Of a stretch of DNA of 64,000 bases, positions 20,599-61,920 are shown in pieces (the stretch's first letter is position 1; every line of letters begins with the position of its first letter). Under the pieces are notes generated by a model, which was not told where the DNA came from, searched no databases, and worked only from the letters and a program-made list of their open reading frames with translations. Source of the stretch: a virus; IMG/VR virus record IMGVR_UViG_3300045988_173968, one strand, 5' to 3'. A program made the translations under genes and the position numbers.

Positions 20599-21846
20599 AT
20601 GAAATACACTTTTGGAAAGAAGGAATGTTTATTGAAGACAGTAAAAGTCTGCGACTCTATCATGGGCTCAGGCAAGACGAGTGCAGCGATACGGATGATG
20701 AACGAGGAAAGGGATAAGAGATTCATCTTTATTACTCCGTTCCTTGCTGAAGCTGACCGCATCGCAGAGGAATGCGAAAGCAGAGGTTTTACGGTTCCTG
20801 TTAAGGTTAAGGGCAGGAAACAGGAATGTCTGCACCAACTGTTGCGGGAAAAGAGGAATGTGTCCACCACTCACGCACTGTTTCTGGACAGTACGGAGGA
20901 GACTATCCGGTTAATTGAAGAAGGCGGATACACATTAGTTCTCGACGAGGTACTTGAACTGTTCGAGAGCAAGGACATCTCGGAGGACGATGTGAACCTG
21001 TTGCAGATTGGCGGAGTAATTGAGATTAAGGAGAACGGTTCTGTTGTCTGGCTAAACGAAGAGTATGATGGTGTGTTTGCGGACTATAAGGAGATGGCAC
21101 TGACTGGCGAACTTTATTACATCAATGATCGGCTGATGTTTTACTCCTATCCTGCTGATGTACTTAAGGCGTTTGAGGAAGTGTATGTGCTAACTTACAT
21201 GTTCGCCGCCCAGACACAAAGATACTACTTTGACATGCGCGGTATTGGTTATGAGTACATCGGAACAAAGAAGCTGCCGGACGGGGGGTACATTTTCACC
21301 GAACGGGCGGAGGTACCTGAGTACGCTAGACACCTTAAGGAAAAGATACATATTGTGGACAGTGAGAAGATGAACAGTGTAGGTAATGGGAAGTATGCCT
21401 TGTCTATGAGATAGTTCCAAGAGAGAGCCGAGCCGGAAGCCGTCGAGCAGATTAAAAAGAACCTACTAAATTATTTTCAAGCAATTAGTGGTTCCAAGGC
21501 ATCTGACCGCTTGTGGGCAACATACAACGTTTCCAAGGATAAGTTGCAGGGGCGTTATGGTCAAAGCTTTCTCTCCTTCAACTCTCGTGCGACAAATAGC
21601 TACAGAGACAAGACCTGTCTGGCGTATCTAGTAAATGTATTTATGAATCCATTTGAGTACAACTTCTTTACGGCGCAGGGCGTCCAGCCAGACCAAGATG
21701 GGTATGCACTGTCTGTTATGGCTCAGTGGATCTGGCGGTCGGCTATCCGCGAGGGCAAAGACATTGAGATTTACATACCGTCCAAGCGAATGCGAGACCT
21801 GTTGATTGCATGGTGCGATAGACTGGAGAAGGGAGAGATGCGGTAA
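20599..21846 (+). CDS. P-loop NTPase / SF2-helicase-like replication protein; one in-frame TAG (21412-21414)
   Basis: Walker A MGSGKTSAAI, Walker B LVLDEV. ORF-track pieces 20464-21414 and 21511-21846 share a frame with only the TAG between them. The start is uncertain (ATG 20599 preferred over 20464). Confidence 0.7.
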
Positions 21847-21847
21847 T

Positions 21848-22240
21848 ATGGAGCCTGCTTATAAGATATTGGCCGTTGAGTTTGATGAAACCATCTTCCG
21901 GCGAGACCTGAAGACATGGAAGTACGAAGCCAACTGGGAAGTCGTACAGTACATACGGCAAAAAGCCAAAGAGGGCTGGGACATCGTTCTGATAACAAAC
22001 CGTTTCAATAAGTGGACACTGAATGAGGCAATTAAGCTGTGTGAAAATGTTGATATACGGTTTTCTGAGATCAACGATAACCCATGGTGGGTGTATGCCA
22101 TTAAGGGACAGCCAAATAAGATTTACTGGAATGAGCTAATTGACCGCTGGGGTTTCCATGAGGCGAAAGGTTGCGAGATTCCCGAAGGATTTGACGAGAA
22201 CTGGGGGTTAGAAGATGAGACGAAAAATATTAGCAGTTGA
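21848..22240 (+). CDS. HAD-superfamily phosphatase-like protein
   Basis: ILAVEFDETIF (DxDxT-like). Tandem paralog of the next gene. Confidence 0.55.
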   Translation: MEPAYKILAVEFDETIFRRDLKTWKYEANWEVVQYIRQKAKEGWDIVLITNRFNKWTLNEAIKLCENVDIRFSEINDNPWWVYAIKGQPNKIYWNELIDRWGFHEAKGCEIPEGFDENWGLEDETKNISS

Positions 22241-22562
22241 TTTTGATGACACTTTGTTTTGGACAGATTACTACAGTTATGAATACGAGCCGAACTGGCC
22301 GGTGATCAATTATGTCCGTAAGCGCCAGAAAGAAGGGTGGATCATCATCCTGTGGACTTGTCGGTATAGAGAGGAAGCTGTGGCAGAAGCAGTAGCAAAG
22401 TGTGAAGAGTACGGGATTAAACCTGACTATGTAAATGAAAACGCCGCCCAAACGATTGAGCGGTATGGCGACCCAAGAAAAATTTTGTGTGACGAGCTGA
22501 TTGATGATACGGTTCGGCACACGGTAAAGGAGATTTATAAGAATGTAGGGAATCTATTATGA
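22215..22562 (+). CDS. HAD-superfamily phosphatase-like protein (paralog)
   Basis: ILAVDFDDTLF DxDxT motif. ORF track 115 aa. Confidence 0.6.
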   Translation: MRRKILAVDFDDTLFWTDYYSYEYEPNWPVINYVRKRQKEGWIIILWTCRYREEAVAEAVAKCEEYGIKPDYVNENAAQTIERYGDPRKILCDELIDDTVRHTVKEIYKNVGNLL

Positions 22563-22593
22563 AAGCAATGACGGTACCTCTCGGAAGATTGGG

Positions 22594-22755
22594 ATGGTGA
22601 GTAAGTTTGATGACTATTGGGATATAGTCAAAAAGGACTTCGCTGTACGAGGGATAACTCCGTACTATTACCGCTACTGGGGCGATGAGAACGAGATGAC
22701 TGTTGATTTCGGGAGCTGGTCAACATTCATTAAGGTGCGGAAGGAGGAACCGTGA
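22594..22755 (+). CDS. small hypothetical protein (53 aa)
   Basis: ATG 22594. Its TGA overlaps the next ATG. Weak RBS. Below the ORF-track cutoff. Confidence 0.3.
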   Translation: MVSKFDDYWDIVKKDFAVRGITPYYYRYWGDENEMTVDFGSWSTFIKVRKEEP

Positions 22756-23324: not shown

Positions 23325-23342
23325 GAAAGGACTACATAAATT

Positions 23343-23603
23343 ATGAAGTACCGAAAGCTCCCTGTTGTAATCGAAGCATTTAAGCTCGGATCTCAGCCAA
23401 CTCCCCCATGGTTCCTTAACGCTGTACGGGATGGTCGCGTACAGATGCACTACGATGAGAAATTGTGGTGTGAGGTAAATACGCTGGAAGGTATTATGAC
23501 AGCTTCCCAGTGTGAAGACTACATAGTGCAAGGCATAGACGGCGAACTCTATCCTTGCAAAGCAAACATATTTGAGAAAACATATGAGGAGGTCGTTGAA
23601 TGA
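23343..23603 (+). CDS. conserved phage hypothetical protein
   Basis: ORF track 86 aa. The pattern PVVIEAFKL...[32 protein letters not shown] recurs in phage genomes as far as I recall. Confidence 0.6.
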
Positions 23604-24103
23604 GTGTAGTTTGTGCGAGAAAGTATGAAGATAAAATAATTATGGCTGCTGACTCGATTCTTTGCCAAGGCGATATGAAACGCACAAAAGGGGATGTCGT
23701 AAAGCTTCGCTCTATCAATGGAATGGGGATTGGCGGATGTGGGATGGCGCAGGAGATTAGCCTTATGTTTCGGTTTGCTGATACTCACCTCCCATCTTCC
23801 GCTACAGAAGCTGGAATGCAGGATTTTATCGTTGAGTTTTCCAAATAGAAGCATGGTTACGATGGAGATTATAGTGTCGAAAATGTATATCTGATTACAT
23901 ACAAGGGCCATTTATTCTGTGTTGAAGATTTTCTCGTTTATGAGGTGAAAGAATACGAAGCTATCGGAGCCGGAATGTATTACGGTTTGACTGCTTTGTA
24001 TCTTGGACACACGCCAAGAGAAGCCGTAAAAGTATCGTGTGACCTGTGCTGCTATGTGGCAGAGCCAATTATTGAGGTAGAGTTCCCGAGAGAGGAGGAA
24101 TGA
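23600..24103 (+). CDS. HslV/proteasome-beta-like Ntn-hydrolase; one in-frame TAG (23846-23848)
   Basis: N-terminal [15 protein letters not shown], then after the TAG ...[25 protein letters not shown]. Same frame throughout, ending at TGA 24101-24103. Confidence 0.6.
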
Positions 24104-24107
24104 CCAA

Positions 24108-24209
24108 GTGGATAACGATTACATCGTCGATGTGAATACTCGGGACGGCAGCCGATTTATGGCTGAGTAGAATGAGTACATAGAAGAATGGGAGGGTGAG
24201 CAACAGTGA
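24108..24209 (+). CDS. 33-codon ORF with in-frame TAG (24168-24170)
   Basis: GTG start 9 nt after a GGAGG. Its TGA overlaps the GTG start of the next gene (GTGA). Confidence 0.35.
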
Positions 24210-27013
24210 GCTTAACTGACCAGATAAATATCTATGCCGTAGATTCTGACGCATTCTACAACGAGGAAGAACGGGATATCAGTATTCAGCTCAATAATCT
24301 GCGCACCAGAAAGAAGAATTTGAAAGAGGAGTTACGAATTGCTGAGCAGTTTCTGGGTGGTTCCCTTCCGGAGAAGTCATAGGCTACCCGATATCGTGAG
24401 ATATACCGGTTGCGTAAGGAAATTGAGATTGACCCGCCTACACAGGATGTGGTTGAGATTCTCAATGAGCAAATTGCTACCTTGACCCCTATTATCACGG
24501 GGCTCAAAAACGAGCTTAAGGATAAACTGGAGAGCCATTCCGGAATTCGCGCCCTTGACCCTCGTGCGCTCTCCCCTAAAAATGTTATATCGGTGTTTGA
24601 ATCCGCCATGACAAGAGTGTTTGGCTTCGAGAAGGATCAGTTATACGATGATGTAATTGTTGTTCGGGCGTATTACTACGAGGTGCTGAAAGACATCATG
24701 CGGGATGGATTTCTTCACAATGGTGAGCGGTATGTGGTGTTTACGGCATCCGCAGGACAGATCCGAACCAAAAGAACCGTCTTTGTTAAGGAATCTCTGC
24801 TTGAGAAGCATCGTCTGACACTCATGTGTGGGCTTACGGTTGACCATATCAATGAGCTGGGCGGTGTCAATGTCAATAAGTATCTGGCTTATTTGGCTTT
24901 GAGTAACTCTGCCACTGATATTTGGGAAGGGTTCGATATTGATAAGTCCATCGTTGTAGAAGACTTTGAGACGCTCGTAAATGGCACCGTAGACTACATT
25001 GATGGTACTACATATGAAATCACTCGCAAGGAAATGGGCGTTCCCATAACGCACACAGATGGCTGTGGAATGATGCTGCCGAGCATCAGTTGGAAGAACA
25101 TGATGGTGCGGCTCCCATGGGTAAAGGGATTGCTCGCCTCTTTCGACTTCAAGAAGTTCATTCGAGAGGCTAATGAGAGAGAACCGGAGATAAACCATGG
25201 TCTCGTCAGAGATATCTACGGCAAAGAATGGGATATTCTGCGAGACGATATCCGTTGTATTTTCACTAAGAGTCAGTTCAAAATGTAGAAATATTACGAC
25301 AATTGGCAGGATTATGTCGATAAATTTAAACATTATGGGTGTCTGGCGTGTAAGTGCAACGAAGAAGAGAGCTTCATCCCCAACGCCAAACTGAACTACC
25401 AGATGTTGCAGACTCTGACCGATATATCAGATGAGGAGTTGCGGGCTCTCGCTGAAAAGTCAGTCAAAAAGCTGGACAACATTGCAGCGGATAAGGATAC
25501 CATGCTCCGAGTATTTGGTGTTAAGGACAGCAACCGAGAGAAGAATCACTTTCAGAAATGTGTCGGTATCTATAATGAACTTCTCTGCCAGGAGTATTCC
25601 AAGGAAACCTTAAAACAGATAAAAAAGAGCCTCGTCAATGACTATCGGGCGGGAAAATTTGATGTTGATGGCAAATATCTGTTTATTATTCCGGATCTGT
25701 ACGCATTTTGCGAGCATCTGTTCCTTGGCATTGAAGTGCCGCAGGGGCTGCTTAAGGACGGTGAAGTGTCGGCAAGAGTGTTCGCCAAGCGGGAGAAGCT
25801 GGATTGCCTGCGGAGTCCACACCTCTACCGCGAGCATGGTGTTCGCCGTAATGTGGTCAACGAGGATACGAAGAAGTGGTTCCGTACTGATGCTCTTTAT
25901 ACAAGCTCTTATGATTTAATTAGCAAATTATTGCAATTCGATTGCGACGGAGATAAGAGCTTAGTGGTCGCTGACGAACTATTTGTCAGCATAGCAGAAC
26001 GAAACATGCATGGTATTGTCCCCCTCTATTACGAGATGGCGAAGGCGGGACAGATGCATATTGACAATATGAAGATCTACGATGGTTTGCAGGCTGCCTA
26101 CAGCGGTGGCAATATCGGTGAGATCAGCAATACTATTACGAAGATTTGGAACAGTGGCGAAATGACGCAGGATAAACTTGATGTGATTAAGTGGTTATGC
26201 TTCGAGAATAATGCAACAATTGATTACGCAAAAACATTGTAGAAGCCCATCCGCCCACATTATGTTGATAAAGCCATTAAATCCTGCGCCAACTATAAGC
26301 CACCCCAATTCTTTATTTACGCTAAAGATAAAACCCAGGAACAAGTAGAACCACGCAATGACAGCATCGTCAACAAGTTGTTTGACATTATCCCCGATAA
26401 GAGAATGCGTTTTACGGCTGCCAACCTCGGGAAGTTCGATTATAAGGTACTGATGCGAAATCCCATCGTTTCTATTGACCCTCGTGTCATTGAGAAATTC
26501 AAAGATCTTGACGCCAGAAAGAACTTGTCTTTGTCTTACGGTTCCAACGAGGAGAACTATGCATTCTTCCGTACAACCGTTAGATGTGAGCTGTATGCTA
26601 TTAACCCGAATGTGAACGCCGTCTGTGATATGCTTGTGGCTCACTTCTTCCGGGACAAGAAAAGTAAGAGCCTTAATACATTCTGGCTGTGCTATGGTGA
26701 CATAGTGTTCCAGAATATTCGAAACAACATCGAGAAAGATTACATACAGTGCAGTTGCTGCGGCAAACGGTTCTGGAGAACCTCTTATAAGAACCAGATT
26801 TGCGAGGCATGCATTGAGAAGATGTCTAATCCAAATCTGCCAAAACCAATTAGATACAAGGTAAAGGTCTGCATTGATTGTGGTAAAGAGTTCAAGACAG
26901 TTTCTACCGCAAGACGAGCTTGTCGTTGCACCGAGTGTAGCAAAATACGGAAGAGGAAAAATACAGCTAAGCGCGTATCACTCTTCCGGAGCAAAGAAAG
27001 TAACGCTTTATAA
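24206..27013 (+). CDS. YonO / eukaryotic-type RdRP-like (double-psi beta-barrel, DxDGD) RNA polymerase candidate with C-terminal zinc ribbons; three in-frame TAGs (24380, 25286, 26240)
   Basis: The segment 24206-24379 upstream of the first TAG (below the ORF-track size cutoff) and three ORF-track pieces (24410-25288, 25403-26242, 26378-27013) share one frame, separated only by TAG. Motifs: VFTASAGQIRTKRTVFV, LRSPHLYREHG, QFDCDGDKSLVV. C-terminal CSCCGK..CEAC and CIDCGK..CTEC. Confidence 0.6.
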
Positions 27014-27688: not shown

Positions 27689-27699
27689 GGAGGTCTGGC

Positions 27700-28983
27700 A
27701 TGATAGATTTCAAGAGAAAGGAAAACGAAACAGAAAATCAGTACCTGTGGCGGGTTGGCGTAGCTATTGAAAATGGTTCTGCTGGACTGACATAGGATGA
27801 GGCTGCTCCGCTTATCAATAAGGAATGGCGCGAAGATGAATCTGAATATCGTACATCTTCTGCTTACCGTAAGCCGGTGCAGTATGCCCTCCGTTTTATG
27901 GAGGACGGTGTGTTTGATGGCAAGAAGGATGGATTGTCCGAAGAACTAATCGAACAGAAATACGAGCTGACCAAGGAGCGTATGCGTCTGCGTGATGAGC
28001 GTCGAGCAATCAACGACCGCCTGCGGTCTGCCGCTCGCTTAGATCACCGTCTGGATTACCTCGGTGAACTTATTGAGAGCAATGGCCATGCGTCTTTTGG
28101 CAATATCCAGTTGCCGGAGCAGAGAACTATCAATCGCCGTAAGGCTGACATTATTGTTTCTTTGGCTGATTTGCACATCGGCGCATCATACTATAATTAT
28201 AATGGTGTGTATGACAGCGAGATGGCAAAGAAACGGCTTGTAGAATACTTGTCGTATGTCAAGGAAATAAAGGATACACACGACCCAGAGAATTGCCACA
28301 TCGTAATTCTCGGTGATTGCATTTCCGGCAATATACATAAGAATCTATCCGTTACGAATGGCGAGAGTGTTGTAGCACAGATTCAGCTCATGTGCGACTA
28401 TGTGAGCGAGTTCTGCGGCAGAGTTGGCGAGATGTTCGGTCAGACTGGCGGCAATGTAACTATTCATTGTGTTGCTGGAAACCATACTCGTCTCGATAAG
28501 AAGGAAGATGCTCTTCACGACGAGCGCCTGGATGATTTACTTCTTTGGTATCTGAGCAGATTCTTTGCAAAGGTTCCCAATGTGTCCGTTTCCGAAGAGC
28601 GCCTCGATAACGGGATTGACCAATTCATTATTCGTGGTCGTAGCTATGTCGCAGTGCATGGCGATTTCGACGGCTTCAACGAAGCTGGCGTATCCAAACT
28701 GGCGATGTTCCTTGGGTACAAACCAAATGTTGTACTGTATGGGCACAGGCACTTCCCTGCCATGACAGAATGTTCCGATGTGGTAATGGTGCAGAGCGGC
28801 AGCTTGGGCGGTAGCGGGGATCAGTTCACACTGGAGCATCGGATGCGTTCAATGCCTGCTCAGTCCGTTCTCGTTGTTAATAGCGATGGCGTTGTTGCTC
28901 ATTATCCTGTTAAGCTTGGTATTATTCCCTGTCTCTCCTACGACCTGGAAAAGTATCCTGCGGAGGAGGATGATATCCTGTGA
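27700..28983 (+). CDS. SbcD/Mre11-type metallophosphoesterase (nuclease-like); one in-frame TAG (27793-27795)
   Basis: AAGGAGG RBS before ATG 27700, in the same frame as ORF 27877-28983. Motifs: LADLHIG, ILGDCISG, AGNHTR, AVHGDF, YGHRH. Confidence 0.75.
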
Positions 28984-29446: not shown

Positions 29447-30574
29447 ATGACCGCACCTACAAAGAGGAGCCTTAAGCCAGCGATTGGTGCGGCTAAGGAA
29501 CCTGCTTTTGAAAAGCGAAATGAAAAGTACGAATGTGTTTGCTGCCACGAAGAAAAGAAGCCTACTGATTTCTACAAATCCCCTACTGCGGCGTTTTGGG
29601 ACTACCCCGGCAGCATTACACTTGTGTGCAAGCAATGCGTCCGTAAGCAGTTTGATCGTGATGTGGATCAATACGGTCTTGACAATGCAATTATGTTTAC
29701 CTGCTATCGTCTTGACCAGCCATATATCAAGTCAACTGCAGAGGATGTTAAGGTCAACACAAACCCGTTTGATATTGGTGTTTACCTTGGCTCTGTTTCT
29801 CGTGCTGCCTATACCGGCAAATCTTTCGCGTGGTCTCTCCTTTCCGGAGAAATTAACCGTGACGATGACAATAGTGTCAAGGAAGAGAGAGAAGATAAAT
29901 GGTCTAAGCGAGACCGCCAGAATATGAACTATGTCATATCGATTATTGGGTATGACCCGTTTGATGACGCTGGCCTTAGTAATATGGACAGAAAGTATTG
30001 CTACAATGTCCTTTCATCTTACCTTAATACACCTTATATTACGGACGATTCTCACAAGATGCAGTCCGTTATCCAGCTTACCAATACATTGTTGCAGGTT
30101 CGCAAGATTGACGAAGCAATCAACAGAGAGCAGCTGAAGGCAAACACTAATACCGATACTCTCACCAATATGGTCATGGCGAGAAAGAACCTGCAGACCA
30201 TTGTAAATGCCATTGTAAAAGACAACAATATTGCCTCGCAGTATTCCAAGGAAAAGACCGGCGGGGAAAATACCTTGACCGGCAAGATGCGGGAGCTAAC
30301 CAATAATGGCTATGAAGCAATGAAGGTTAATCTATTTGATATTAAAACCTCTGAGGCTATGAAGCAAATCGCTGATCTTAGTAACTCGAGCATCATGGAA
30401 CAGCTCTCTCTAGATGCCAACGACTATACCGAAATGCTGAAAGAGCAACGCACCATGCTGACTGACCTGCGAGAAAAGGCGGATGCGCTTGAGGAGGAAA
30501 ATAGACAGCTCAAGAATAATCTTGAAAATCTGATTTCGGAATCATCAGCTAAGAGAAAGCGTGGTGGTTCATAA
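29447..30574 (+). CDS. hypothetical protein with zinc ribbon and C-terminal coiled coil; small-terminase candidate by position only
   Basis: 375 aa. AGAGGAG RBS. CVCCHEEK...LVCKQC. TAATG overlap with terL. Confidence 0.6.
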   Translation: MTAPTKRSLKPAIGAAKEPAFEKRNEKYECVCCHEEKKPTDFYKSPTAAFWDYPGSITLVCKQCVRKQFDRDVDQYGLDNAIMFTCYRLDQPYIKSTAEDVKVNTNPFDIGVYLGSVSRAAYTGKSFAWSLLSGEINRDDDNSVKEEREDKWSKRDRQNMNYVISIIGYDPFDDAGLSNMDRKYCYNVLSSYLNTPYITDDSHKMQSVIQLTNTLLQVRKIDEAINREQLKANTNTDTLTNMVMARKNLQTIVNAIVKDNNIASQYSKEKTGGENTLTGKMRELTNNGYEAMKVNLFDIKTSEAMKQIADLSNSSIMEQLSLDANDYTEMLKEQRTMLTDLREKADALEEENRQLKNNLENLISESSAKRKRGGS

Positions 30575-32400
30575 TGGAAATTTATGTGCCAACTACACCA
30601 TCCGAATGGTCTCAGCGCAAGGTCGAGGAATATGAAAAGGCGGCAAAAGTAATCAATTAGGGGCGAGAAAACCCTGTTCGCTTTGCGGAGGAAGTGTTCG
30701 GCATTGCCATGATCGACTATCAGAAGTGGTCTTTCATGGAGAGCTGGTGGCGGCCATATGTTCTTTGGCTCTGTAGCCGTTCAGCCGGTAAGACAACCGA
30801 GGCTGCAATCTTCTTGCAAACGAAGTGCTTCCTTATACCGAACTATACGGTCTGGATCTTTACAAACAGCGCCGGTCAGTCTATTGAGTGCTTCAAGAAA
30901 ATCGAGGATATCGCCTTGCAGAAGATTCCTTCATTTAGAACCTGTACGGACATCTTCGCTTCCGAAATCGAGAGAAACTCCAATTCCCCTACTGGGTTTA
31001 TTCATGACCCTGCGGGTCATCACTTCTCTCTGTTTAATAATTCTGGTGTGACTACCCTGTCTTCAAACCTTAACGCCATTCGTGGTAAGCGTGGTTCTAT
31101 ATTCTACGACGAGACTGGTTGGATGGGCAAAGAAGAATTTGCAACCACTGAACCATTCGCTTCACAGGACGCGAGTTGGGGTATCGGCGTCTCTAAAGGC
31201 CCTAAGTATTACGAGCCGCAGGCGATGCCTTTGCAGAGACTGTACGCTAGTTCCGCAAGTGATGTGACATATCCGTTTTACGAGAAGTATCGTGATTTCT
31301 CTAAGAAAATGATTCTTGGGCATCCTGACTACTTCGTTTGCGATATCAACGCTAACACTATTTTAGATTTCTCTACTCTTAATGGCGAACAGATCCCTTC
31401 TCACTTACAGCGAGAAGAAATCATCCGAAAGATGGACGAAGACCCGGATATGGCAGAGCGCGAATACTTCAACAAATTCTCAAAAGGCGGCGCTCAAAAC
31501 AGTGTTGTCCGTATGGAGACAATGATCCGGAACTCTTTTGTTTATCCTCCGGTTATGTGCAACGATACTGGTAAGCGTAAATTCATCTTTACATATGACC
31601 CTGCTCGCAACTTCGATGGAAGTGTCCTTTCTATTTTTGAGCTTATTGAGGACGAAAAAGTTGGATTGAAGTTGCGGTATGTGCGGTGTATTTCCTTTGT
31701 CGATACAGAAACGCGCAAGAAAACTCCATTGCCGATGAACGAGCAGGTCAAAATAATCAAAAAACTGCTCGTTGATTACAACGGGCCGAACGCTGCTGAC
31801 TGGGAAAATATCGAGGTTTATATCGATGCCGGTGCCGGTGGTGGCGGTATCTCTGCCGTGGCTGATAACCTTATGGAGGATTGGGAAGACAGTTCCGGGC
31901 AGGTGCATCGTGGCATGGTTGATCCGGAACATAAACAGTATGAGACTTCCAGGGCAAATTATCCTAATGCTCTTCCCTGCATTCATCTGATTGAACCTGC
32001 TTCTCATAAGCGGCTTATCTTTGATGCGCTGGAGAATATGACAAAGTTTGACCTGATTGAGTTTCCTGATTATGACGGCAAGGATGTTATAACCATAGTA
32101 AATGCCGATGGCAGCTATCAGGATTATGAGCTTTCCTTCCCAGAGCGGCTTGCCCTGGTGCAGTGCAATCTTGCCAAAACTGAAATCACCTATATGCGAA
32201 AGTATATTTCCGCCAATGGGCAGACATCATACGATCTCGCTAAGGATAAGAAAAACACAATGCATGATGATCGTTGTTACACCGTAGCCATGGCTGCATG
32301 GGTTCTTTCTCAAAAGAGAAGAACCGATTTAATCAATTCCAATGTCCAAACAGATGACGATTTTTCTGAATTCTGTTTCCGGGCGCCAAAAGTAAAATAA
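30574..32400 (+). CDS. terL: terminase large subunit; one in-frame TAG (30658-30660)
   Basis: ATG 30574 is in frame with ORF 30694-32400. Walker A LCSRSAGKTT, FYDETGW Walker-B-like motif, C-terminal nuclease-like HDDRCY. Confidence 0.85.
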
Positions 32401-46550: not shown

Positions 46551-46613
46551 TATGACATTCTGGGATCGCCCATGTGGCGATCCCTCCTTATATAAAAGAA
46601 AGGATTGATTATT

Positions 46614-47714
46614 ATGGCTGAAAAGACTTTGCAGACACGGATACAGCTTAAGTATGATACTTGGGCGAACTGGAATACCGAAGCTGGCAAGGCTGTTGTA
46701 CTTAAAAAGGGCGAAATAGCTTTTGTTGAGGTTCCTTCTGCCACAGGTGATATTACTCAAACTCCTGCATTGCTTGCAAAGGTTGGCGATGGGGTTAAAA
46801 CATTTAGTGCTCTCCCCTGGCTGAAAGCTACTGCTGCAGATGTTTTCCCATGGGCCAAGGCAGAAACAAAGCCTACCTATGAAGCGTCCGAGATTTCTGG
46901 GCTTGACGCTTTTATCAAAGGACTCGCCGACAAGGATACAGACACGCAATACCAGCTTGTTGAAGTAAAAACGAACAATGTTGTCACTGGTTATAAACTG
47001 CAGAGCAAATCCAAGGGTGGCACCTTTGCTGACATTTCCGGTTCTCCTGTCATTGATGTTATGACGGAAGCGGAAGTAAACGCTCTGATTGACACTAAGC
47101 TGAACGGCAAGAACTTCGGTGATATTATCACTCATAACGCCTCTGAATTTGCCGCTACTTCTCACACGCATAAAATGGCAGATGTATCTGGCTTGCAGAC
47201 TTACATTGATGAGAAAACTGCTGGTCTGACCGGGGCCATGCACTTCGTCGGTACAGCTACTGCCAATCCTACAAGTGAGTCCGGGCCTGCCGTGACCGGC
47301 GTTACCAACTTTGCCAAAGGTGATGTTGTTGTCTGGAATAAGCAGGAGTATCTTTGTACGACTGCTGGTACCAACAAAACTGCTGTGTGGCAGCTTTTCG
47401 GTGATGAGGGTTCTTACGCTGTAAAAGGCAGTATTAAGAATGCAGATATTGCTTCCGATGCCGCTATTGATCAGAGCAAGATTAGTGGTTTATCTACTAC
47501 TCTTGGCAACAAGGTCGATAAGGTGGCCGGCAAGGGATTGAGCGCCACAGATGTCACAAAGACTATGACTGATAAGTGGGATGCTGCATATAAGCACTCT
47601 CAGACTGCTCATAACTATGCGGCTGCTTCCCATAAGCACAACCAGGCCGATATTGTTCAGGCTACTGGCGATATCCTGATTCTTGATTGTGGCAGCGCTA
47701 CTAAGAATATTTAA
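46614..47714 (+). CDS. tail fibre protein 3 (shared N-terminal module)
   Basis: ATG 46614. N-terminus LKYDTWANWNTEAGKAVVLKKGEIAFVE...KVGDGVKTFSALPW. HTH and HKH motifs. Confidence 0.65.
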   Translation: MAEKTLQTRIQLKYDTWANWNTEAGKAVVLKKGEIAFVEVPSATGDITQTPALLAKVGDGVKTFSALPWLKATAADVFPWAKAETKPTYEASEISGLDAFIKGLADKDTDTQYQLVEVKTNNVVTGYKLQSKSKGGTFADISGSPVIDVMTEAEVNALIDTKLNGKNFGDIITHNASEFAATSHTHKMADVSGLQTYIDEKTAGLTGAMHFVGTATANPTSESGPAVTGVTNFAKGDVVVWNKQEYLCTTAGTNKTAVWQLFGDEGSYAVKGSIKNADIASDAAIDQSKISGLSTTLGNKVDKVAGKGLSATDVTKTMTDKWDAAYKHSQTAHNYAAASHKHNQADIVQATGDILILDCGSATKNI

Positions 47715-53480: not shown

Positions 53481-54797
53481 ATGAAGAAGAGAGTCGATAT
53501 TGGTTATCACGATTATGTATATAAATTATTTTTTGAGCCAGGCTTAGATCTTGCGCCTAACGAGAGCCTGACAAGAAATATTACCTTTCAGGTAACTGAT
53601 GACTGCTGTATGAATTGCTCCTACTGTTACCAAGGTCATAAAGGTCATCGCATCATGTCTAAGGAGGTCGCCCGCAAGGGAGTTGACCTCCTTTTTGATA
53701 TGTATGAGAAAAATGATAGCCCATTTATCAACAAAAAGACCAAGGCCATCATCCTCGACTTCATTGGCGGTGAACCGTTAATGGCGGTTGATGTTATCGA
53801 TTACATCTGTACCTATTTTGTGCAGAAATGTCTTGAGCTTGATCACCCGTGGCTATATACATGGCGTGCCTCGATGACATCAAACGGCGCTTTGTATTTT
53901 GAGCCAGCTGTTCAGAATTTTCTGAAAAAGTTCCGTGGCAATGTGAGCTTCTCAATCACTCTTGATGGCCCTAAAGAAATTCACGATGCTTGTCGAGTTT
54001 ACCACGATGGTCGTGGTAACTTTGATGATGCCTATGCTGCGATGAAGCATTTTAATTCGCACTACTACGAAGAGCTTGGCACTAAGGTTACTATTGCGCC
54101 GGAAAATCTGCATAATCTTAATAAAATCGTAGATTTCTTTCTTGCGGAAGGCATGAATCTTATTCACGCAAATTGCGTGTATGAAGCAAAGTGGACTTAT
54201 GAACAAGCAAGCGTATTTTACGATGAGTTAAAAAAGATGGCCGACAAGTTGCTTGAACGCAATGATGAAACTACTGTGAGCCTGTTTGATGAAGCGTTCT
54301 TCAGACCATTACCGCCAGAAGAAAATTCAAATTGGTGTGGAGGGGATATGAAAATGTTGGCATTTGACCCGGCTGGCATTGCATATCCGTGTTTGCGATA
54401 TATGTCATCATCTCTTGGAACTGATAGAGCCCCAATTATAGTTGGCTCAGTAGATGGGCTCTTTGTTACGGAAGAGCAAAAGAACATCAAAGAATACATG
54501 GATAAAATAACACGCCGTTCTCAGTCTACGGATGAATGCTTTAATTGCCCGATAGCGGGCGGCTGTGCTTGGTGCTCCGCTTGGAATTACCAAGAAACTG
54601 GTTCCGTTAACAAGCGCAGTACAAATATTTGTGCAATGCACAAAGCCAGGTCTTTAGCTAATGTGTATTACTGGAACAAGTGGTATAAGCAGAACGGTAT
54701 CGACAAGGTATTCAAGATGTATCTGCCCAAAGAAGAAGCCTTAAAGATCATCAACGAGCAGGAATACGATATGCTTGCTGAACTCAGCAAAGAGTAA
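53481..54797 (+). CDS. radical SAM enzyme with C-terminal SPASM-type auxiliary cluster domain (anSME/peptide-maturase-like)
   Basis: 438 aa. CCMNCSYC (CX3CX2C), GGEPLM, C-terminal CFNCPIAGGCAWC ... NICAMH. Confidence 0.85.
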   Translation: MKKRVDIGYHDYVYKLFFEPGLDLAPNESLTRNITFQVTDDCCMNCSYCYQGHKGHRIMSKEVARKGVDLLFDMYEKNDSPFINKKTKAIILDFIGGEPLMAVDVIDYICTYFVQKCLELDHPWLYTWRASMTSNGALYFEPAVQNFLKKFRGNVSFSITLDGPKEIHDACRVYHDGRGNFDDAYAAMKHFNSHYYEELGTKVTIAPENLHNLNKIVDFFLAEGMNLIHANCVYEAKWTYEQASVFYDELKKMADKLLERNDETTVSLFDEAFFRPLPPEENSNWCGGDMKMLAFDPAGIAYPCLRYMSSSLGTDRAPIIVGSVDGLFVTEEQKNIKEYMDKITRRSQSTDECFNCPIAGGCAWCSAWNYQETGSVNKRSTNICAMHKARSLANVYYWNKWYKQNGIDKVFKMYLPKEEALKIINEQEYDMLAELSKE

Positions 54798-55469: not shown

Positions 55470-55496
55470 ACAATGATTAACTTGGAGGATTAAAAT

Positions 55497-55973: not shown

Positions 55974-55985
55974 GACACGATTAAG

Positions 55986-56014
55986 CGGGGCCCTTATTGG
56001 GCCCCGTAGTTTTA
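55986..56014 (+). terminator. intrinsic terminator closing the Cys-ladder cassette
   Basis: CGGGGCCC-TTATT-GGGCCCCG followed by TAGTTTT. Confidence 0.6.
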
Positions 56015-56035
56015 ACGCTGAAAGGAGGCGACTTT

Positions 56036-56689: not shown

Positions 56690-56703
56690 AAAGAGGTGGT
56701 TAT

Positions 56704-59700
56704 GTGGCTGATAATTATAAGATAAGACTTATTGGTGAGTTGGACGCTGAAACAACCACCTCGAATATAAAAAAACAACTCGAAGGAATAAAGATTAAGG
56801 CAAACATTCTTGAAGGCGGTTTTACCGCGGAGAGTATAGAGAAGCTTTCCGAGCAAATCTCCAATGCAGTAGATGCTTATCAGAAGAAAAGCGAAAAATC
56901 TCCTATACGGGTTCCAATTAAAATCTCCAAGGTTGATGGAAGTGAAGCTATTGCTGTATTCAAGAATCAGCTTAGCAAGGAGATCAATGCTCTGAACATT
57001 GCCTCTCCTGGTACGCACGATGTGCATTTGGAAATCAAGGATTCCGAGTAGGGCAAAGAAAAGGCTGCAGCTCTTAAACAAGAAGCAAATGAGCAAGCGG
57101 CTAAGGCTGCCGAAAAAGAATTAAAGGCTCATCAGGCTACAAATACTGCTTTGCAAAATGAGATTGATAAGCTCAAGGAGAAGTTCCAAGAGCAGCAAAA
57201 AGCTAACGCAGAAGCACTGGCTGAAGAGCGTCAGGCGAGAAAAAAGGCTGAAGCCGAAGCGGCTGTGACAAACGAGAAGAAAAAGCAGCAGGAAGCTGAA
57301 GTTGCCGCTCAAGCCGCCCAAAAAAGAACTAACAAACTGATTCAGGATTCTATAAGTTTACTTAATAAACAGACTGTTTATTTCAAGAAAAACCCCGTTG
57401 TATATAACGGAAACATACTTGACGCTAACCGTTGGAAATACCAGTTAAACAATATCATCAATGGCAAGGTTACAAATCCTGATGAAGCGGCAGATATCGT
57501 TTCAAAATATCGTCAGTGGTTTGACGGTATGAAAACATCCGCTATTGAAGCTGGCATAACTGGCGCAACGGCCATCGATAAGATAAAGCAGGCTATTACT
57601 AAGTTTGGCAGTTGGAACATCATGACTTTTGCCATCACCAAACTTAAGCGCGGCCTTGTTGATATCGTTAAAAATGTCAAAGAGCTTGATGCTGCGATGA
57701 CGGAGCTGCAAAAAGTTACGGATGAAACATCCAACCGATACGAGCGCTTTGTTAAGGACGCTGCTGCTTCCGCCAAGCAACTTGGTACTACCCTTGTCGG
57801 TATCGTAAACGCTACGAGCACATTTGCTCGACTTGGCTACAATATAGATGATGCTTCTGAATATGCAAAAATCGCAACCGTCTATAAGAATGTTGGCGAC
57901 TCTATTGAAAGTATCGATGATGCTGCAAGCAGTCTTGTCTCTACGATGAAAGCATTTAAGCTTGAGAGTATTAGTGACGCTTGGGGTATTATTGATCTGT
58001 TTAACGAGGTTGGCAACTCCTTTGCGACTACATCCGGAGACATCGGCGAAGCGATGAAGCGCTCTGCCTCTGCTTTGTATGAAGCGGGCAATACGATTGA
58101 GCAGTCTGTTGGTTTGTATACTGCAGCGCAAACGATTGTACAGGATGCTGATGTAGTTGGTACGGCATTAAAGACTCTTTCTATGCGCTTGCGTGGCACA
58201 AAAACTGATCTTGAAGCCGCTGGACTTGATGTCGATGGGCTTGCATCTTCTACATCTGCGTTAAGAGGTGAGATCCTTGCCCTTACCAATGTGGATATTA
58301 TGAAGAGCGCTACCGAGTTCAAGTCTACATATGAAATGTTGCAGGATTTGAGCAAGGTATGGGATAAGCTCGAAGAAACCTCTCGTGCCAGAGTTCTTGA
58401 ACTCGTTGCCGGTAAGCGAATGGCTTCCACAGTTGCGGCCATTATCAATAATTTCGACATTGCTGAAGAAGTTACTGGATTGAACTATTCCGGCAGTGCC
58501 TTAAAAGAAAATGAGAAATACCTCGAAAGTATCAATGGACGCATTGATGTACTTAAAGCTTCTTATGAGGAACTTTCTCAAACCGTGCTCGATAGTGGTC
58601 TTGTTAAAGCATTTGTAGATATCGGGAATGCAGCTATCAATGCATTTAACTGGCTTTATAGCGCAGAAATTAGTTCTGACTCTCCGATTGGCAAATTAGG
58701 CAACATTTCAAAAAGTGTATATGAAATCAAAGATGCTATAACTTCCTTAATCCCATCCTTAGATCATGTTTCGAAGATAAAGCTGTGGGGCATCTTGCCA
58801 ACAATCATTCCTGCTATTACTGCCATTTCCAATGTACTAAGCAAAGGAAATGATAACGGGTATGTACAGGTAAAAAGAGAAGGAACATCATTAAGGCTTG
58901 CTGGCACTGATCGCTGGGCGAACGAAAAGGAAGCACTATCAGAAAAAGACTACCTTGACTTCTTAGGGTTTGGAGATTATACAAAGGCTGAAAAGTATCT
59001 CAAGAAAAATAAAGATAAATTTGACGGGTTATTTAAAGAGATTCTCACATGGAAATACGATTCGACTGATCTTGATCCAGACACGCTACTTCCAAAGAAA
59101 AAATTCAAACCCCTCTTTGAAACTGACCCTCAAAAATATCAGGAGAAGATAAAGCAATTTGGCGCTTATGCTGATGCGGCTGATCAAATTGCCCATAGCA
59201 CTGAGCAAGCAGCGGAAGCTACTGATATGATGGGCGAAGCCGTTGTTCGAGACACCTTTAAATATAAAGCTTTTACTGTTGCTGCTAAAGCGGCCAATGT
59301 AGCTTTATCAACGCTTAAGAGTCTCGCTATCTCATTTGCTATTCAGCTCGCTATAAACGCGGTAGTTGCTCTTGTCGATGAACTTAAAAATGGCATGAGC
59401 AACGCTGTTGAACGAGTGAGCGATGCCAAATCTGCTCTTGAAAGTGTTGACGAAAAAATCTCCGATACAACAAAAGAACTTGAAGAGGCTCAGAGCAGGA
59501 TTAAAGATATTCAAAATCTTGGAAAACTGTCAATTACGGATGCATCTGATCTCCGTAATCTTCAGTTATCCAATGCTCAACTTCTTGTACAGCTTTCGTT
59601 GCTCGAAAAGGAAAAAGAGCTTAAAGAAGCTGAACTTAATGCTGGCAAGAATGCCGTTTGGAATCGTTTTCAAAATTCACGGTGGGATGGATATTACACA

Positions 59701-61920
59701 AGACCCCAGGAAAAGTTAACTCAAGAAGAATATGTTAACTACATGCGTGATCAGCTTCCTAAAAAATACGAGCGTATTGCGGCACTCAATCAACTGGCTT
59801 CCCAAAGAGATTTGACCGCCGCCGAGAAGGGCGAGCTAAAATTATTGCAGTCCGGGATTGAAAAGGCACAAACCAATCTTCTTGAAATTGCTGAAAACCT
59901 GAAGGATATTGACAGTGAGCAGTCTAACGCTGTCATTGCAATGATTGCATGGCTGACTTCCAACAGTAAAACACAGCTCGAATTGTTTAATACCTACGCT
60001 GGTTCTATATCTGAGGGAGTACAGAAATCGTTGCTTGATATGGCATCGGCTGGAACCTTAACGGAAGAAAGTCTTAAAAGGGTTGTCCCCGAGCAAACGC
60101 TCGAAGCCATGGTTGCCCTTTGCGGCTCTATTGAGAATGTTATCTATCAATATGAGAACATGGCAAATAGCGGAGCGGATGTTACTGGCTCTCTGTATGC
60201 ACAGGCTCGTGAGCTTGAATCTATCAACGAAGATATGGATTCCTTGCAAAGCTCATATAAAACGCTCGTCGCGGCCATAAGCGAATATAATGCAAATGGC
60301 TACATGACTGTTGATACATTGCAGTCTTTCCTGTCCTTGTCTGACGACTATATTGAGGCTCTCACGCTTGAGAATGGACAGCTTGTTCTGAACACTGATA
60401 GTATCATCGCCTTGGCAAATGCTCGACTCGACGAAATGCTTGCGAAGAAGTGGAATCAGACTGTCGAAGTTATTGATACTCTCATTAAAGAGAAGAGTAG
60501 TACCGAAGAGACTACGGAGTCTATTCAAGATAAGACATACGCCATTGAAGATATGACGGATGCCGCTCTTGAGAATTACATTGTGGAACAGCTTGGGCTT
60601 AAGAGTAACCAAGAAATCAACAGTGAACTTCGTGCGGCTATCGACTCATTTAATATCTATAAGGCGATGATTGATTCTACTCGAAAAGGTCTTGGACGGT
60701 ACACCAATACCACTTTCGGAGCCGCAGACGCAACAAAATCTCTAACCGATGCAATTAAGGATCAATATGATAAGCTACTTGATAAGGAGAAAGCCCGTAT
60801 CAATGCTGCCAAAGAAGTTCTCGAGGATAGAAAGAAAGATCTTCAAGATGAACTTGATGCCCTTGAGGAGCAGTACGAAGCCGAGGATAAACTCCTCGAA
60901 TTGCAAAAGGCAAAAGACCGTTATGAAGCGGCTAAGGCGAACAAGAATACTCGGCTTTATACGGCTGATAAGGGATGGCAGTGGGTATCCGATCCACAAG
61001 AACTTGAGGACGCAAAGAGTAGCCTTGATGAACTCCACAAAGAGATGGAGCGAGATGAGGCTAAGAAGGCTATTCAAGACCAAATCGACGCTATCGATAA
61101 CCTAATTGATAAGTGTGACGATGCGCTGGATATTCTCGGGCAAGACTGGGATGATTACATTGAGCATTTGAATCTTGTCGCTGAGATGCAAGGTCTTACT
61201 ATGGATCAGTTGGGCGATCAGGTCGAAGGATTTGTTGACCGCGCAATAGACCTCATCAGGCAGTATTCCAATGCCTTGAAAGAAGCAGCGGCAGCTGAAA
61301 GTATGCTCGGTAATGGCAATGGTAAAAAGAATGCCGGAGATAACGACAAGCCAGTAGAAAAGGATTTCTGGAAAGATACAAAGGCTGGCACAATAATCTC
61401 TGATGTAATTGCGAAAAGCAAGCAGCAGGAGAATTGGTATCGTAATAATCTGCCGAATTCCATTACTAACCCATTCCCGAACGGAGTAAGTGGTGTATCG
61501 GGCACAAAGATTGCAGGTAAGATAGTAGATGATATTGCTAAGGGAAAGCGCGCTCCGCTCGCTACCGGCGTTAAGTATGTTTCCTCATCCGGTATTTACA
61601 ATGTCGATGATGGAAACGGCCCAGAAATCATCGCTCGTCGCGGCAGATATACTCGACTTGAAGTTGGCGATGGTGTTGTACCAGCAGATTTAACTGCTCG
61701 GTTATTTGCTCTTGCCAAATCTCCAGAGGAATACATTATGCCTAAAGTAAGCGGACTGTTTGCTATTTTGGCTGCCAATTTGATTGGCCGTCCCGGTCAG
61801 GTACAGCAATCTGCTCAACAGCCTATCTATATCGCTAAGGTAGAAGTTACTGGTGTTGAGGATGTTGATGGGTTCCTTGACGAATTAACTAAAATCGTAA
61901 ATCGTAAGAGAAAGGTGTGA
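56704..61920 (+). CDS. tail tape measure protein; one in-frame TAG (57049-57051)
   Basis: ORF-track pieces 56704-57051 and 57151-61920 share a frame with only the TAG between them. About 1738 codons. Long Ala/Lys/Glu coiled coils and central hydrophobic segments are typical of tape measure proteins. Confidence 0.8.

What the first reader, a model, noticed from the sequence alone, without database searches (positions are those of the whole stretch)
20599..61920. TAG is a sense codon in the rightward arm: nine in-frame TAGs, and no rightward gene ends at TAG
Seen. In nine places an ORF-track ORF stops at TAG and coding resumes in the same frame with no other stop. The TAGs are at:
- 21412 (helicase-like)
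- 23846 (HslV-like)
- 24168 (small ORF)
- 24380, 25286 and 26240 (RNA-polymerase-like)
- 27793 (SbcD-like)
- 30658 (terL N-terminus)
- 57049 (tape measure)

Conserved motifs and RBS-linked start codons lie on the far sides of these TAGs. Every plus-strand gene end I call uses TAA or TGA. The leftward arm has no internal TAG that I could detect. Only the GH73 gene ends at TAG (11847), and a TAA follows 7 codons later.

Established. Reassignment of TAG (usually to Gln, translation table 15) is documented in gut phages and is proposed to gate late-gene expression (Ivanova et al. 2014; Borges et al. 2022).

Inference. The same logic applies here. The standard-code early arm carries the tRNAs, while the recoded arm carries replication, transcription and structural genes. 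Sequence context does not identify the inserted amino acid; Gln fits most sites and Trp is conceivable at two. No CUA tRNA was found in the window.
Basis: partly seen in the sequence, partly recalled or inferred. Interest (0 to 1): 0.75.

Follow-up and report, generated by a model that had tools for sequence, protein, structure and literature searches.

The report
Phage reads TAG as tryptophan
In this gut phage, a relative of Bacillus phage SPbeta, the stop codon TAG is used as a rare sense codon that almost certainly means tryptophan rather than the glutamine reported for other recoded phages, and the roughly 105-kb genome carries no tRNA able to read it.

Summary
All nine TAGs are at the stated coordinates, in frame, inside seven genes. 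Full-length standard-code homologs span the TAGs in six of these genes. Substitutions just after the TAGs fall mainly on third codon positions. None of the 49 rightward genes ends at TAG.

The interpretation needs three corrections.

1. The amino acid is tryptophan, not glutamine. Standard-code homologs have W or another aromatic residue at seven of the nine sites (HslV-like W 110/150, SbcD-like W 43/46), and SPbeta itself has W at three. A log-odds score over ten sites gives W +23.8, Y -2.7, Q -13.6. Every TAG-to-sense swap seen between close relatives in rightward genes is TGG<->TAG; none is CAG.

2. The recoding is not specific to one arm. Leftward-strand replication genes just outside the window (primase-helicase, PolIII alpha) also carry in-frame TAGs at W positions.

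3. It does not gate late genes. The TAGs lie in replication, RNA polymerase, terminase and tape-measure genes, and the 24-kb structural block has none.

Overlapping near-identical contigs close into a circle of about 105 kb with no CUA-anticodon tRNA, so the decoder is probably supplied in trans (inferred). TAG->Trp is otherwise known only from Balanophoraceae plastids. This is a new variant of phage stop-codon recoding.

The parts
20464..21846 (+). Helicase gene (SPbeta YonV homolog, DEAD-like) with in-frame TAG at 21412-21414.
   Evidence: PF00270. Homologs have W or S at the site, and SPbeta YonV has W. L004 and L042 have TAG where the window has W at residue 196.
23600..24103 (+). 167-aa 'HslV-like' gene with in-frame TAG at 23846-23848.
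   Evidence: Full-length homologs of about 165 aa have W in 110 of 150, Y in 18 and F in 13. The TAG is kept in L001-L004 and L042. Substitutions downstream fall 12/7/46 by codon position.
24108..24209 (+). 33-codon small ORF with in-frame TAG at 24168-24170.
   Evidence: It has an RBS (GAGAGGAGG) upstream of a GTG start. Substitutions fall 8/4/18 by codon position. The TAG is kept in L003 while the flanking residues change. No distant homolog was found.
24206..27013 (+). YonO-type single-subunit RNA polymerase gene (PF05183, catalytic DxDGD motif) with in-frame TAGs at 24380, 25286 and 26240.
   Evidence: 54.7% identity to SPbeta yonO. Homolog residues at the three sites are A or variable; Y69/W57/H25; and Y151/F7. 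L004 and L042 have TGG at 26240. L001 and L002 have TAG where the window has TGG at 25229.
27700..28983 (+). SbcD-like / YonJ-like metallophosphoesterase gene with in-frame TAG at 27793-27795.
   Evidence: Metallophos. Homologs have W in 43 of 46, and SPbeta YonJ has W.
30574..32400 (+). Terminase large subunit gene (YonF position) with in-frame TAG at 30658-30660.
   Evidence: Homologs have W8/Y2/F1. Synteny with SPbeta.
56704..61920 (+). Tape measure gene with in-frame TAG at 57049-57051.
   Evidence: PF10145 on the downstream part. Four homologs align across the site, but in a coiled-coil region, so the residue is uninformative. The TAG is kept in L164 and L165. Substitutions are biased to the third codon position.
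21824..21826 (+). TGG codon in the window that is TAG in relative L003 (gene 21806-22240).
25229..25231 (+). TGG codon in the RNA polymerase gene that is TAG in L001 and L002.
53862..53864 (+). TGG codon in the radical-SAM-like gene (53481-54797) that is TAG in L164.
63780..63782 (+). TGG codon (gene 63609-63911) that is TAG in L164.
11847..11849 (-). TAG that ends the GH73 (glucosaminidase) gene 11847-12359, followed eight codons downstream by a TAA.
7437..12726 (-). tRNA cluster: Thr-UGU, Thr-CGU, Ser-UGA, Ile-UAU, Pro-UGG and Leu-UAA, plus one tRNA-like gene with a 3-nt anticodon loop. None has a CUA anticodon.

Best explanation
The window comes from a temperate phage of gut Clostridia that resembles SPbeta. 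It has a YonO-type RNA polymerase and the gene order yonO-yonN-yonJ-yonG-yonF-yonE. Its nearest standard-code relatives sit in Oscillospiraceae genomes.

In this narrow lineage UAG is a rare sense codon, about 5% of Trp codons (10 TAG against 176 TGG in the right arm), and it is translated as tryptophan.

Shown:
- The TAGs interrupt single conserved genes.
- Translation continues in frame past them.
- TAG exchanges with TGG between close relatives.
- TAG sits where homologs have W or another aromatic residue.
- TAG is not used as a terminator in the rightward arm.

Also shown: the roughly 105-kb circular genome, rebuilt from near-identical contigs, has no tRNA with a CUA anticodon.

Inferred: the decoder is a UAG-reading tRNA charged by TrpRS and supplied in trans by the host or by a co-resident element. 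The phage would then behave like a natural set of amber mutants. Its replication, transcription, packaging and tail genes could be completed only in a cell that inserts Trp at UAG. I hold the decoder step at about 0.45. The confidence given below is for the core claim that TAG is a Trp sense codon.
For: Single genes:
- Full-length homologs span the TAGs.

Read-through rather than restart:
- The stretches between each TAG and the next possible start codon show substitutions biased to the third codon position. HslV-like gives 12/7/46 and 4/1/28. RNA polymerase gives 0/2/12, 1/1/8 and 2/0/6.
- Conserved residues lie directly after the TAGs.

Trp:
- HslV-like W 110/150.
- SbcD-like W 43/46, TerL W 8/11, helicase W 20/S 20, RNA polymerase site 2 Y69/W57/H25.
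- Primase-helicase W 10/F 6, and PolIII alpha PHP domain W 37/38.
- SPbeta YonV, YonO and YonJ have W.
- Log-odds over ten sites: W +23.8, Y -2.7, Q -13.6 nats.
- Six of six TAG<->sense swaps in + arm genes are TGG<->TAG, and none is CAG despite 262 CAG codons.

Specific to TAG:
- No in-frame TGA or TAA was seen, although TGG->TGA is as easy a mutation as TGG->TAG.

No terminator use:
- 0 of 49 genes, against 9% in relatives.

No decoder in the genome:
- ARAGORN (with and without introns) and Rfam were run on the window and on loci that tile the rest of contig IMGVR_UViG_3300045988_150250.
- The right end joins the far-left end in L381 and L219.

Precedent:
- Balanophora and Thonningia plastids read TAG as Trp, and Thonningia keeps only trnE (PMC10268348).
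Against: - There is no protein-level evidence. The amino acid is inferred from alignments and codon swaps.
- Three window sites are uninformative: RNA polymerase 24380 (mostly A), the tape measure, and the small ORF.
- RNA polymerase site 26240 is Y in 151 of 158 distant homologs, so Tyr or a mixture cannot be excluded at single sites.
- The swap at 26240 lies in a more divergent recombinant allele, not on an otherwise identical background.
- No host genome was identified, so a host tRNA(CUA) is pure inference.
- A host that reads UAG as Trp would also read through its own TAG terminators.
- The anticodon is a TrpRS identity element, so charging a CUA tRNA with Trp is not guaranteed (my own knowledge).
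- The genome outside the window was read from near-identical contigs, not from the window's own molecule, and these genomes differ in cargo.
- A few left-arm genes, such as GH73, do end at TAG.
Confidence: 0.78

Rival explanations
1. Code 15. TAG is read as glutamine by a suppressor tRNA, as in crAss-like, Lak and phAss phages.
For: This is the only TAG reassignment reported for phages in the papers I read. Public gene callers translated the closest relatives with TAG=Q. Q is a minor residue (6 of 26) at one variable site outside the window, c92311.
Against: Q is essentially absent from homolog columns at the informative sites. The log-odds for Q is -13.6 against +23.8 for W. No CAG<->TAG swap was seen, while six TGG<->TAG swaps were. 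The Q in P0001-P0003 comes from TAG in the DNA. No suppressor tRNA is present.
Confidence: 0.05
2. RNA-level recoding. The A of UAG is deaminated to inosine in the mRNA, and UIG is read as UGG (Trp). This happens at the hepatitis delta amber/W site and in fungal stop-codon editing. No special tRNA would be needed.
For: It would explain both Trp specifically and the lack of a CUA tRNA. The TGG<->TAG equivalence is exactly what editing predicts.
Against: The nine sites share no sequence motif or local structure. Their contexts differ, and the folding energy lies within the spread of TGG control sites. No deaminase domain was found among the 25 window proteins scanned with Pfam, or in the off-window proteins, which I judged only by eye. 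Known bacterial mRNA editing by TadA needs a UACG loop, which is absent here (my own knowledge). Many ORFs were left unscanned.
Confidence: 0.07
3. Ambiguous or different decoding. UAG is read by near-cognate tRNAs when RF1 is limiting, giving a Tyr/Trp/Gln mixture, or by a host pyrrolysine tRNA. TAG then persists only at positions that tolerate bulky or aromatic residues.
For: Several sites are Y, F or H in homologs, and RNA polymerase site 26240 is Y in 151 of 158. No dedicated tRNA is in the phage.
Against: Sites with W in nearly all homologs (SbcD-like 43/46, PolIII alpha 37/38) argue for a defined Trp; the HslV-like site has W in 110/150. The swaps are only with TGG, never TAY. Three TAGs in one essential polymerase require efficient decoding. 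No pyl genes were seen in the phage proteins examined.
Confidence: 0.07
4. The TAGs are real stops. The genes are split into separately translated pieces, or this is a decaying prophage that is accumulating nonsense mutations.
For: Start codons exist 10-46 codons downstream of some TAGs. The element is temperate, with integrase genes.
Against: Only TAG interrupts genes, never TGA, TAA or a frameshift. Purifying selection acts on the residues between a TAG and any restart codon. The TAGs are conserved in relatives with 90% protein identity and in a 49%-identical allele. A catalytic polymerase cut into four pieces inside conserved blocks is implausible.
Confidence: 0.03

Closest known systems
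Stop-codon-recoded gut phages (Ivanova 2014; Borges 2021/2022; crAss-like, Lak, Garnet/Topaz, phAss-1): TAG->Gln, NCBI table 15
   Same: In-frame TAG occurs in conserved phage genes of a gut phage whose relatives use the standard code. TAG is avoided as a terminator. Like roughly half of the reported TAG-recoded phages, this one has no suppressor tRNA of its own.
   Different: The inferred amino acid is Trp, not Gln. Borges et al. state that they see only TAG->Gln and TGA->Trp. TAG density is very low: about 10 per 14,000 codons, so coding density hardly changes between table 11 and TAG-as-sense ORF calling (95.1% to 97.6% of the right arm). The TAGs sit in replication, transcription, terminase and tape-measure genes on both strands rather than in late or lysis genes. 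The phage is a roughly 105-kb SPbeta-like temperate phage.
Balanophoraceae plastid code (TAG->Trp; NCBI table 32 from my own knowledge; PMC10268348)
   Same: The codon has the same meaning. TAG is absent from 3' termini. The recoded genome does not encode the decoder.
   Different: The plastid case is driven by extreme AT bias, with TGG nearly lost. Here the GC content is 45% and TGG remains the main Trp codon, 176 against 10. The biological setting is unrelated.
Bacillus phage SPbeta (Spbetavirus) and its YonO RNA polymerase
   Same: The YonO homolog is 54.7% identical over the central 317 aa. The gene order yonO-yonN-yonJ-yonG-yonF-yonE is conserved, and YonV-like helicase and integrase genes are present.
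   Different: SPbeta uses the standard code and has W (YonV, YonO, YonJ) or F (YonO) where this phage has TAG. The host clade differs: Clostridia rather than Bacillus.
Laboratory amber mutants grown on suppressor hosts (for example E. coli su7, a tRNA-Trp CUA derivative; my own knowledge)
   Same: Essential phage genes carry UAG and depend on a decoder supplied by the cell.
   Different: Here the state is natural, involves many sites, and is conserved across samples. E. coli su7 inserts mainly Gln, whereas the evidence here points to Trp.

Membership tests
TAG-recoded phages, code 15 (TAG->Gln) | In-frame TAG inside conserved single genes | tested here: met
TAG-recoded phages, code 15 (TAG->Gln) | TAG aligns with Gln in standard-code homologs | tested here: not met
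   W or aromatic residues dominate. Log-odds W +23.8, Q -13.6.
TAG-recoded phages, code 15 (TAG->Gln) | Phage-encoded tRNA-Sup(CUA). This is frequent but not universal: 35-52% of reported cases. | tested here: not met
   None found in the window or in loci that tile a near-identical genome of about 105 kb.
TAG-recoded phages, code 15 (TAG->Gln) | Recoded codons concentrated in late, structural or lysis genes | tested here: not met
   The TAGs are in helicase, RNA polymerase, SbcD-like, primase-helicase and PolIII alpha genes as well as TerL and the tape measure. None lies in 32.4-56.7 kb.
TAG-recoded phages, code 15 (TAG->Gln) | TAG not used as a terminator in recoded modules | tested here: met
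   0 of 49 + strand genes.
TAG->Trp code (Balanophoraceae plastid type) | TAG aligns with Trp and is interchangeable with TGG | tested here: met
TAG->Trp code (Balanophoraceae plastid type) | No TAG at gene 3' ends anywhere in the genome | tested here: inconclusive
   True for the + arm. In the left arm, GH73 and two small ORFs end at TAG.
TAG->Trp code (Balanophoraceae plastid type) | Extreme AT bias with loss of TGG | tested here: not met
   GC 45%; 176 TGG against 10 TAG.
TAG->Trp code (Balanophoraceae plastid type) | Trp at UAG shown at the protein or transcript level | not testable with these tools
   Needs proteomics or RNA-seq.
SPbeta-like phages with YonO RNA polymerase | YonO-type two-barrel RNA polymerase with a DxDGD motif | tested here: met
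   PF05183. 'FDCDGD' is present. 54.7% identity to yonO.
SPbeta-like phages with YonO RNA polymerase | Conserved gene order around yonO (yonN, yonJ, yonG, yonF, yonE) | tested here: met
Pyrrolysine decoding of UAG | pylT/pylS genes and Pyl-type usage | not tested
   ARAGORN found no CUA tRNA (which it would label Pyl) in this lineage. The host genome is unknown.

The most novel reading that the evidence does not exclude
A bacteriophage lineage has reassigned UAG to tryptophan, a meaning not reported for any phage or bacterium, without encoding the decoder. This implies one of two things. Either some gut Clostridia carry a Trp-inserting UAG decoder that phages exploit as a host-dependence switch, or a mechanism not based on a tRNA, such as A-to-I editing of UAG to UIG, operates in bacteria.
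Probability: 0.7. Interest if true: 0.85.

Novelty: new variant of a known kind. Interest (0 to 1): 0.75.

Why it matters
Phage stop-codon recoding has so far been described as TAG->Gln or TGA->Trp. A third assignment, TAG->Trp, matters in three ways.

1. It would widen the set of natural genetic codes in the bacterial world.

2. Current pipelines mistranslate these genes. Public databases already hold versions of these proteins with Q at the TAG sites.

3. It raises a sharp, testable question about what reads UAG. A complete genome of about 105 kb lacks a suppressor tRNA, yet the phage's replication, transcription, packaging and tail genes all need one.

The very low TAG density also means that screens based on coding density will miss such lineages. 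Recoding may therefore be more common, and more varied, than surveys suggest.

Tried and rejected
1. Coding density under different stop sets barely separates the codes, because TAG is so rare.

2. Megablast of 24.2-32.4 kb against GenBank phages found no close relative.

3. I walked the whole genome through IMG/VR contigs looking for a CUA tRNA and found none. ARAGORN with intron search and Rfam at permissive thresholds also found none.

4. I scanned IMG/VR for the anticodon arm of a Trp-like tRNA mutated to CUA (CGGTCTCTAAAACCG). The arm is shared by more than 120 unrelated suppressor tRNAs of many body types, so it says nothing about Trp ancestry, and no hit came from this lineage.

5. The tRNA-like gene at 11561-11629 was considered as the decoder and rejected. 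It has a 3-4-nt anticodon loop, no CUA, and no similarity to Trp tRNAs.

6. An editing motif or hairpin around the TAGs was not found.

7. A DGR explanation for the A/G variation was rejected. The reverse-transcriptase locus has no template/variable repeat pair in the window, and the TAG sites are scattered over many genes.

8. Hypermutation by a cytosine deaminase (TGG->TAG) was rejected. The TAGs are conserved across relatives with about 90% protein identity, and at 26240 the inferred order is TAY->TAG->TGG.

9. The apparent TGG<->TAG swap at 11243 in the left arm lies inside a RAGATH-36-like RNA, not a gene.

10. Phrase searches of the literature for TAG->Trp in phages returned nothing relevant.
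Full report
**What is in the window.** Bases 1-19,250 are read leftward. They hold accessory genes and a tRNA cluster. From 19,400 onward the window is read rightward.

The rightward arm opens with these genes:
- an integrase;
- a YonV-like helicase;
- a metallophosphatase;
- a 167-aa 'HslV-like' protein;
- a YonO-type single-subunit RNA polymerase (PF05183);
- an SbcD/YonJ-like nuclease;
- an HU protein;
- terminase, portal, structural genes and a 1,738-codon tape measure.

The polymerase is 54.7% identical to SPbeta yonO over its centre, and the gene order matches yonO-yonN-yonJ-yonG-yonF-yonE. The nearest standard-code relatives (52-54% identity in the polymerase) lie in Oscillospiraceae, other Clostridia and Paenibacillus genomes. 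The element is therefore an SPbeta-like temperate phage of gut Clostridia.

**Checking the observation.** All nine TAGs are at the stated coordinates. Each joins two table-11 ORFs in one frame with no TAA or TGA between them.

The evidence that these are single genes is as follows.
- Homologs of about 925 aa cover 98-100% of the merged polymerase.
- Homologs of about 165 aa cover the merged HslV-like protein.
- tblastn alignments to standard-code relatives run through the TAG in the helicase, SbcD-like and TerL genes.
- For the tape measure, four homologs align across the site, but in a low-complexity region.
- The small ORF at 24108-24209 has an RBS and third-position-biased substitutions (8/4/18), and keeps the TAG in a relative whose flanking residues have changed.

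Translation continues past the TAGs rather than restarting. The stretches between each TAG and the first possible restart codon show the substitution pattern of coding sequence in the upstream frame. Counts by codon position are 12/7/46 and 4/1/28 for HslV-like, and 0/2/12, 1/1/8 and 2/0/6 for the polymerase. Blocks conserved across the family, such as 'KYYDNW' and 'KPxRP', begin directly after the TAG.

With TAG read as sense, the 49 rightward genes end at TAA (28) or TGA (21), and none has a TAG near its end. Standard-code relatives end 9% of long ORFs at TAG, so zero of 49 has a probability of about 0.01.

Only TAG interrupts genes. No TGA, TAA or frameshift was seen, although TGG->TGA is as easy a mutation as TGG->TAG.

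The same TAGs occur in independent assemblies from IMG/VR, ENA and Logan, down to 90% protein identity.

**Which amino acid.** The three closest database proteins show Q at two polymerase sites. Their DNA has TAG there, and the tool reports that the gene does not translate to the stored protein under table 11. Those proteins were therefore called with code 15, and the Q is not evidence.

Residues in standard-code homologs opposite each TAG:

| Site | Homolog residues |
|---|---|
| HslV-like 23846 | W 110/150, Y 18, F 13 |
| SbcD-like 27793 | W 43/46 |
| TerL 30658 | W 8, Y 2, F 1 |
| Helicase 21412 | W 20, S 20 |
| Polymerase 25286 | Y 69, W 57, H 25 |
| Polymerase 26240 | Y 151, F 7 |
| Polymerase 24380 | variable, mostly A |

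SPbeta itself has W in YonV, W and F in YonO, and W in YonJ at these positions.

A log-odds score over ten sites (six in the window, four just outside) gives W +23.8 nats, Y -2.7 and Q -13.6. The score was computed before the HslV-like site was added.

Close relatives give independent evidence. Every TAG-to-sense difference inside rightward genes is TGG<->TAG:
- 21824 (L003);
- helicase residue 196 (L004, L042);
- 25229 (L001, L002);
- 26240 (L004, L042, read directly);
- 53862 and 63780 (L164).

None is CAG<->TAG, although CAG is the commoner codon, 262 against 176. If TAG meant Gln, CAG<->TAG would be the silent, frequent change. TAG makes up about 5% of Trp codons in this arm.

**Not specific to one arm, and not a late-gene gate.** I rebuilt the rest of the genome from near-identical IMG/VR and ENA contigs. 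Leftward-strand genes 20-25 kb beyond the window's left edge also carry in-frame TAGs:
- a primase-helicase with an intein has three, and the one outside the intein is at a W/F position;
- the PHP domain of PolIII alpha has one, at a position that is W in 37 of 38 homologs;
- a PD-(D/E)XK nuclease has one;
- a MazF-like gene has one;
- a 370-aa gene has two, both conserved in a 49%-identical allele.

Inside the window, the 24-kb structural block at 32.4-56.7 kb has none. The TAGs therefore mark replication, transcription, packaging and tape-measure genes on both strands. They do not mark a late or rightward module.

**What reads UAG.** The window has six ordinary tRNAs and one tRNA-like gene with a 3-nt anticodon loop. 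None has a CUA anticodon.

Loci that tile contig IMGVR_UViG_3300045988_150250 (106,237 nt) and its relatives add only a tRNA-Met. An intron-aware search adds nothing.

The right end of the phage in L381 continues into the far-left end seen in L219, and L164 shows the same join. The map is therefore a closed circle of about 105 kb with no unexplored segment.

Relatives with 64-71% identity in a shared protein show no in-frame TAG in the genes compared, and several of them carry a tRNA-Trp(CCA) that this lineage lacks. One relative with about 65% identity in the same protein carries a 94-nt tRNA(CUA).

I found no deaminase, TrpRS or release-factor domain. Pfam was run on 25 window proteins. The off-window proteins were judged only by eye. 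There is no shared motif or structure at the TAG sites that would suggest RNA editing.

The decoder is therefore inferred, not shown. I favour a Trp-charged UAG-reading tRNA supplied by the host or by a co-resident element, at about 0.45. A-to-I editing and ambiguous near-cognate decoding are live alternatives.

**Comparison with what is known.** Borges et al. report only TAG->Gln and TGA->Trp in phages whose code differs from their host's. The phAss-1 and Pharokka-gv papers likewise treat TAG as Gln. My phrase searches found no report of TAG->Trp in phages.

TAG->Trp is established in Balanophora and Thonningia plastids. Thonningia keeps only trnE, so that genome also lacks the decoder. That case is driven by extreme AT bias, which is absent here.

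This lineage works like the known recoded phages. It fails the test of membership in code 15 on the defining feature, the amino acid.

**Verdict.** The best reading is a new variant of phage stop-codon recoding: low-density TAG->Trp with no decoder encoded in the genome. The main weaknesses are the lack of protein-level data and an unidentified host.

Noticed in passing
window 11561-11629 (-): A tRNA-like gene scores 50.8 bits against the Rfam tRNA model, with perfect acceptor, D and T arms, but its anticodon loop has only 3 nt (GAG). In relatives L168 and L170 the loop has 4 nt. It differs from the relatives' copy at about 10% of positions, while flanking genes are 98-99% identical. It has no CUA and no clear parent tRNA. 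It could be a decoy for anticodon nucleases or a decayed gene.
   Followed up: partly
window 11221-11362 (-): A match to RAGATH-36 RNA (55.5 bits, E = 2e-8, below the gathering score of 70) lies between tRNA-Ser and the odd tRNA. It overlaps a mechanical ORF whose 'in-frame TAG' is therefore not coding.
   Followed up: no
window 16180-16267 (-): A match to the HDV-like ribozyme of Faecalibacterium prausnitzii (38.9 bits against a gathering score of 44, E = 0.001). If real, it is a self-cleaving ribozyme in the leftward arm and a hint that the host is close to Faecalibacterium/Oscillospiraceae.
   Followed up: no
window 2734-5172 (-): A reverse-transcriptase gene (RVT_1, 382 aa, 2734-3882) is preceded by about 600 nt with no convincing ORF (3883-4488) and by a ThiF-family gene (4489-5172). 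No template/variable repeat pair was found in the window, so it is probably not a DGR. It could be a retron or a defence-type RT with its non-coding RNA.
   Followed up: partly
L004 11738-12020, L001 2860-3142 (between window 25942 and 25943): Relatives carry a 283-nt insertion exactly between the F-D and C-D-G-D codons of the polymerase's catalytic motif. The 5' exon ends in T and the insert ends in G, as in group I introns, and the insert folds strongly (-101 kcal/mol). No Rfam family matches it. The window lacks the insertion.
   Followed up: partly
contig IMGVR_UViG_3300045988_150250 92637-95561 and 97357-99816; L383, L384 and L388 (homologs of window 53481-54797): Inteins sit in the primase-helicase (in the Walker A site, with a LAGLIDADG endonuclease), in PolIII alpha (judged by eye only, not tested), and, in some relatives, in the radical-SAM-like gene (Hint/LAGLIDADG Pfam marks). 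Two of the three TAGs in the primase-helicase lie inside its intein.
   Followed up: no
window 7513-8423 (-), compared with L170 6289-6442: The two tRNA-Thr genes are adjacent in relative L170 (contig 150250). In the window they are separated by about 0.9 kb that carries an ECF riboflavin-transporter S-component gene (7532-8053) and a 117-aa ORF. Most near-identical relatives (L167, L169-L171) also have a tRNA-Met(CAU) between Leu and Pro that the window lacks.
   Followed up: no
window 45591-47243 (-): A 550-aa ORF lies antisense to the 805-aa and 369-aa rightward genes (44133-46550 and 46605-47714). It is unusually long for a chance antisense ORF.
   Followed up: no
L380 and L381 18125-20537 (about 8-10 kb beyond the window's right end): Downstream of the M23 peptidase (lysin) the phage carries a RelA_SpoT (toxSAS) gene with a SocA_Panacea antitoxin, and a ToxN toxin gene. 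Their presence varies between relatives.
   Followed up: no
P0001-P0003 (public protein clusters); L001-L003: Public protein databases hold these phage proteins translated with TAG=Q (code 15). If TAG is Trp, the stored sequences are wrong at every TAG.
   Followed up: yes
L260-L379 (IMG/VR): More than 120 viral contigs carry CUA tRNAs that share the identical anticodon arm CGGTCTCTAAAACCG on many different tRNA bodies. These include many tRNAs of about 90 nt with a long variable arm containing CCCTCTGAAGGAGG. The pattern looks like convergence on one amber-suppressor anticodon arm.
   Followed up: partly
L246 and L253 (IMG/VR relatives, 30-44% protein identity): Other members of the wider family have in-frame TAGs at positions where this phage has Q, M or T. 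TAG recoding has therefore probably arisen more than once in this family, perhaps with a different meaning.
   Followed up: no
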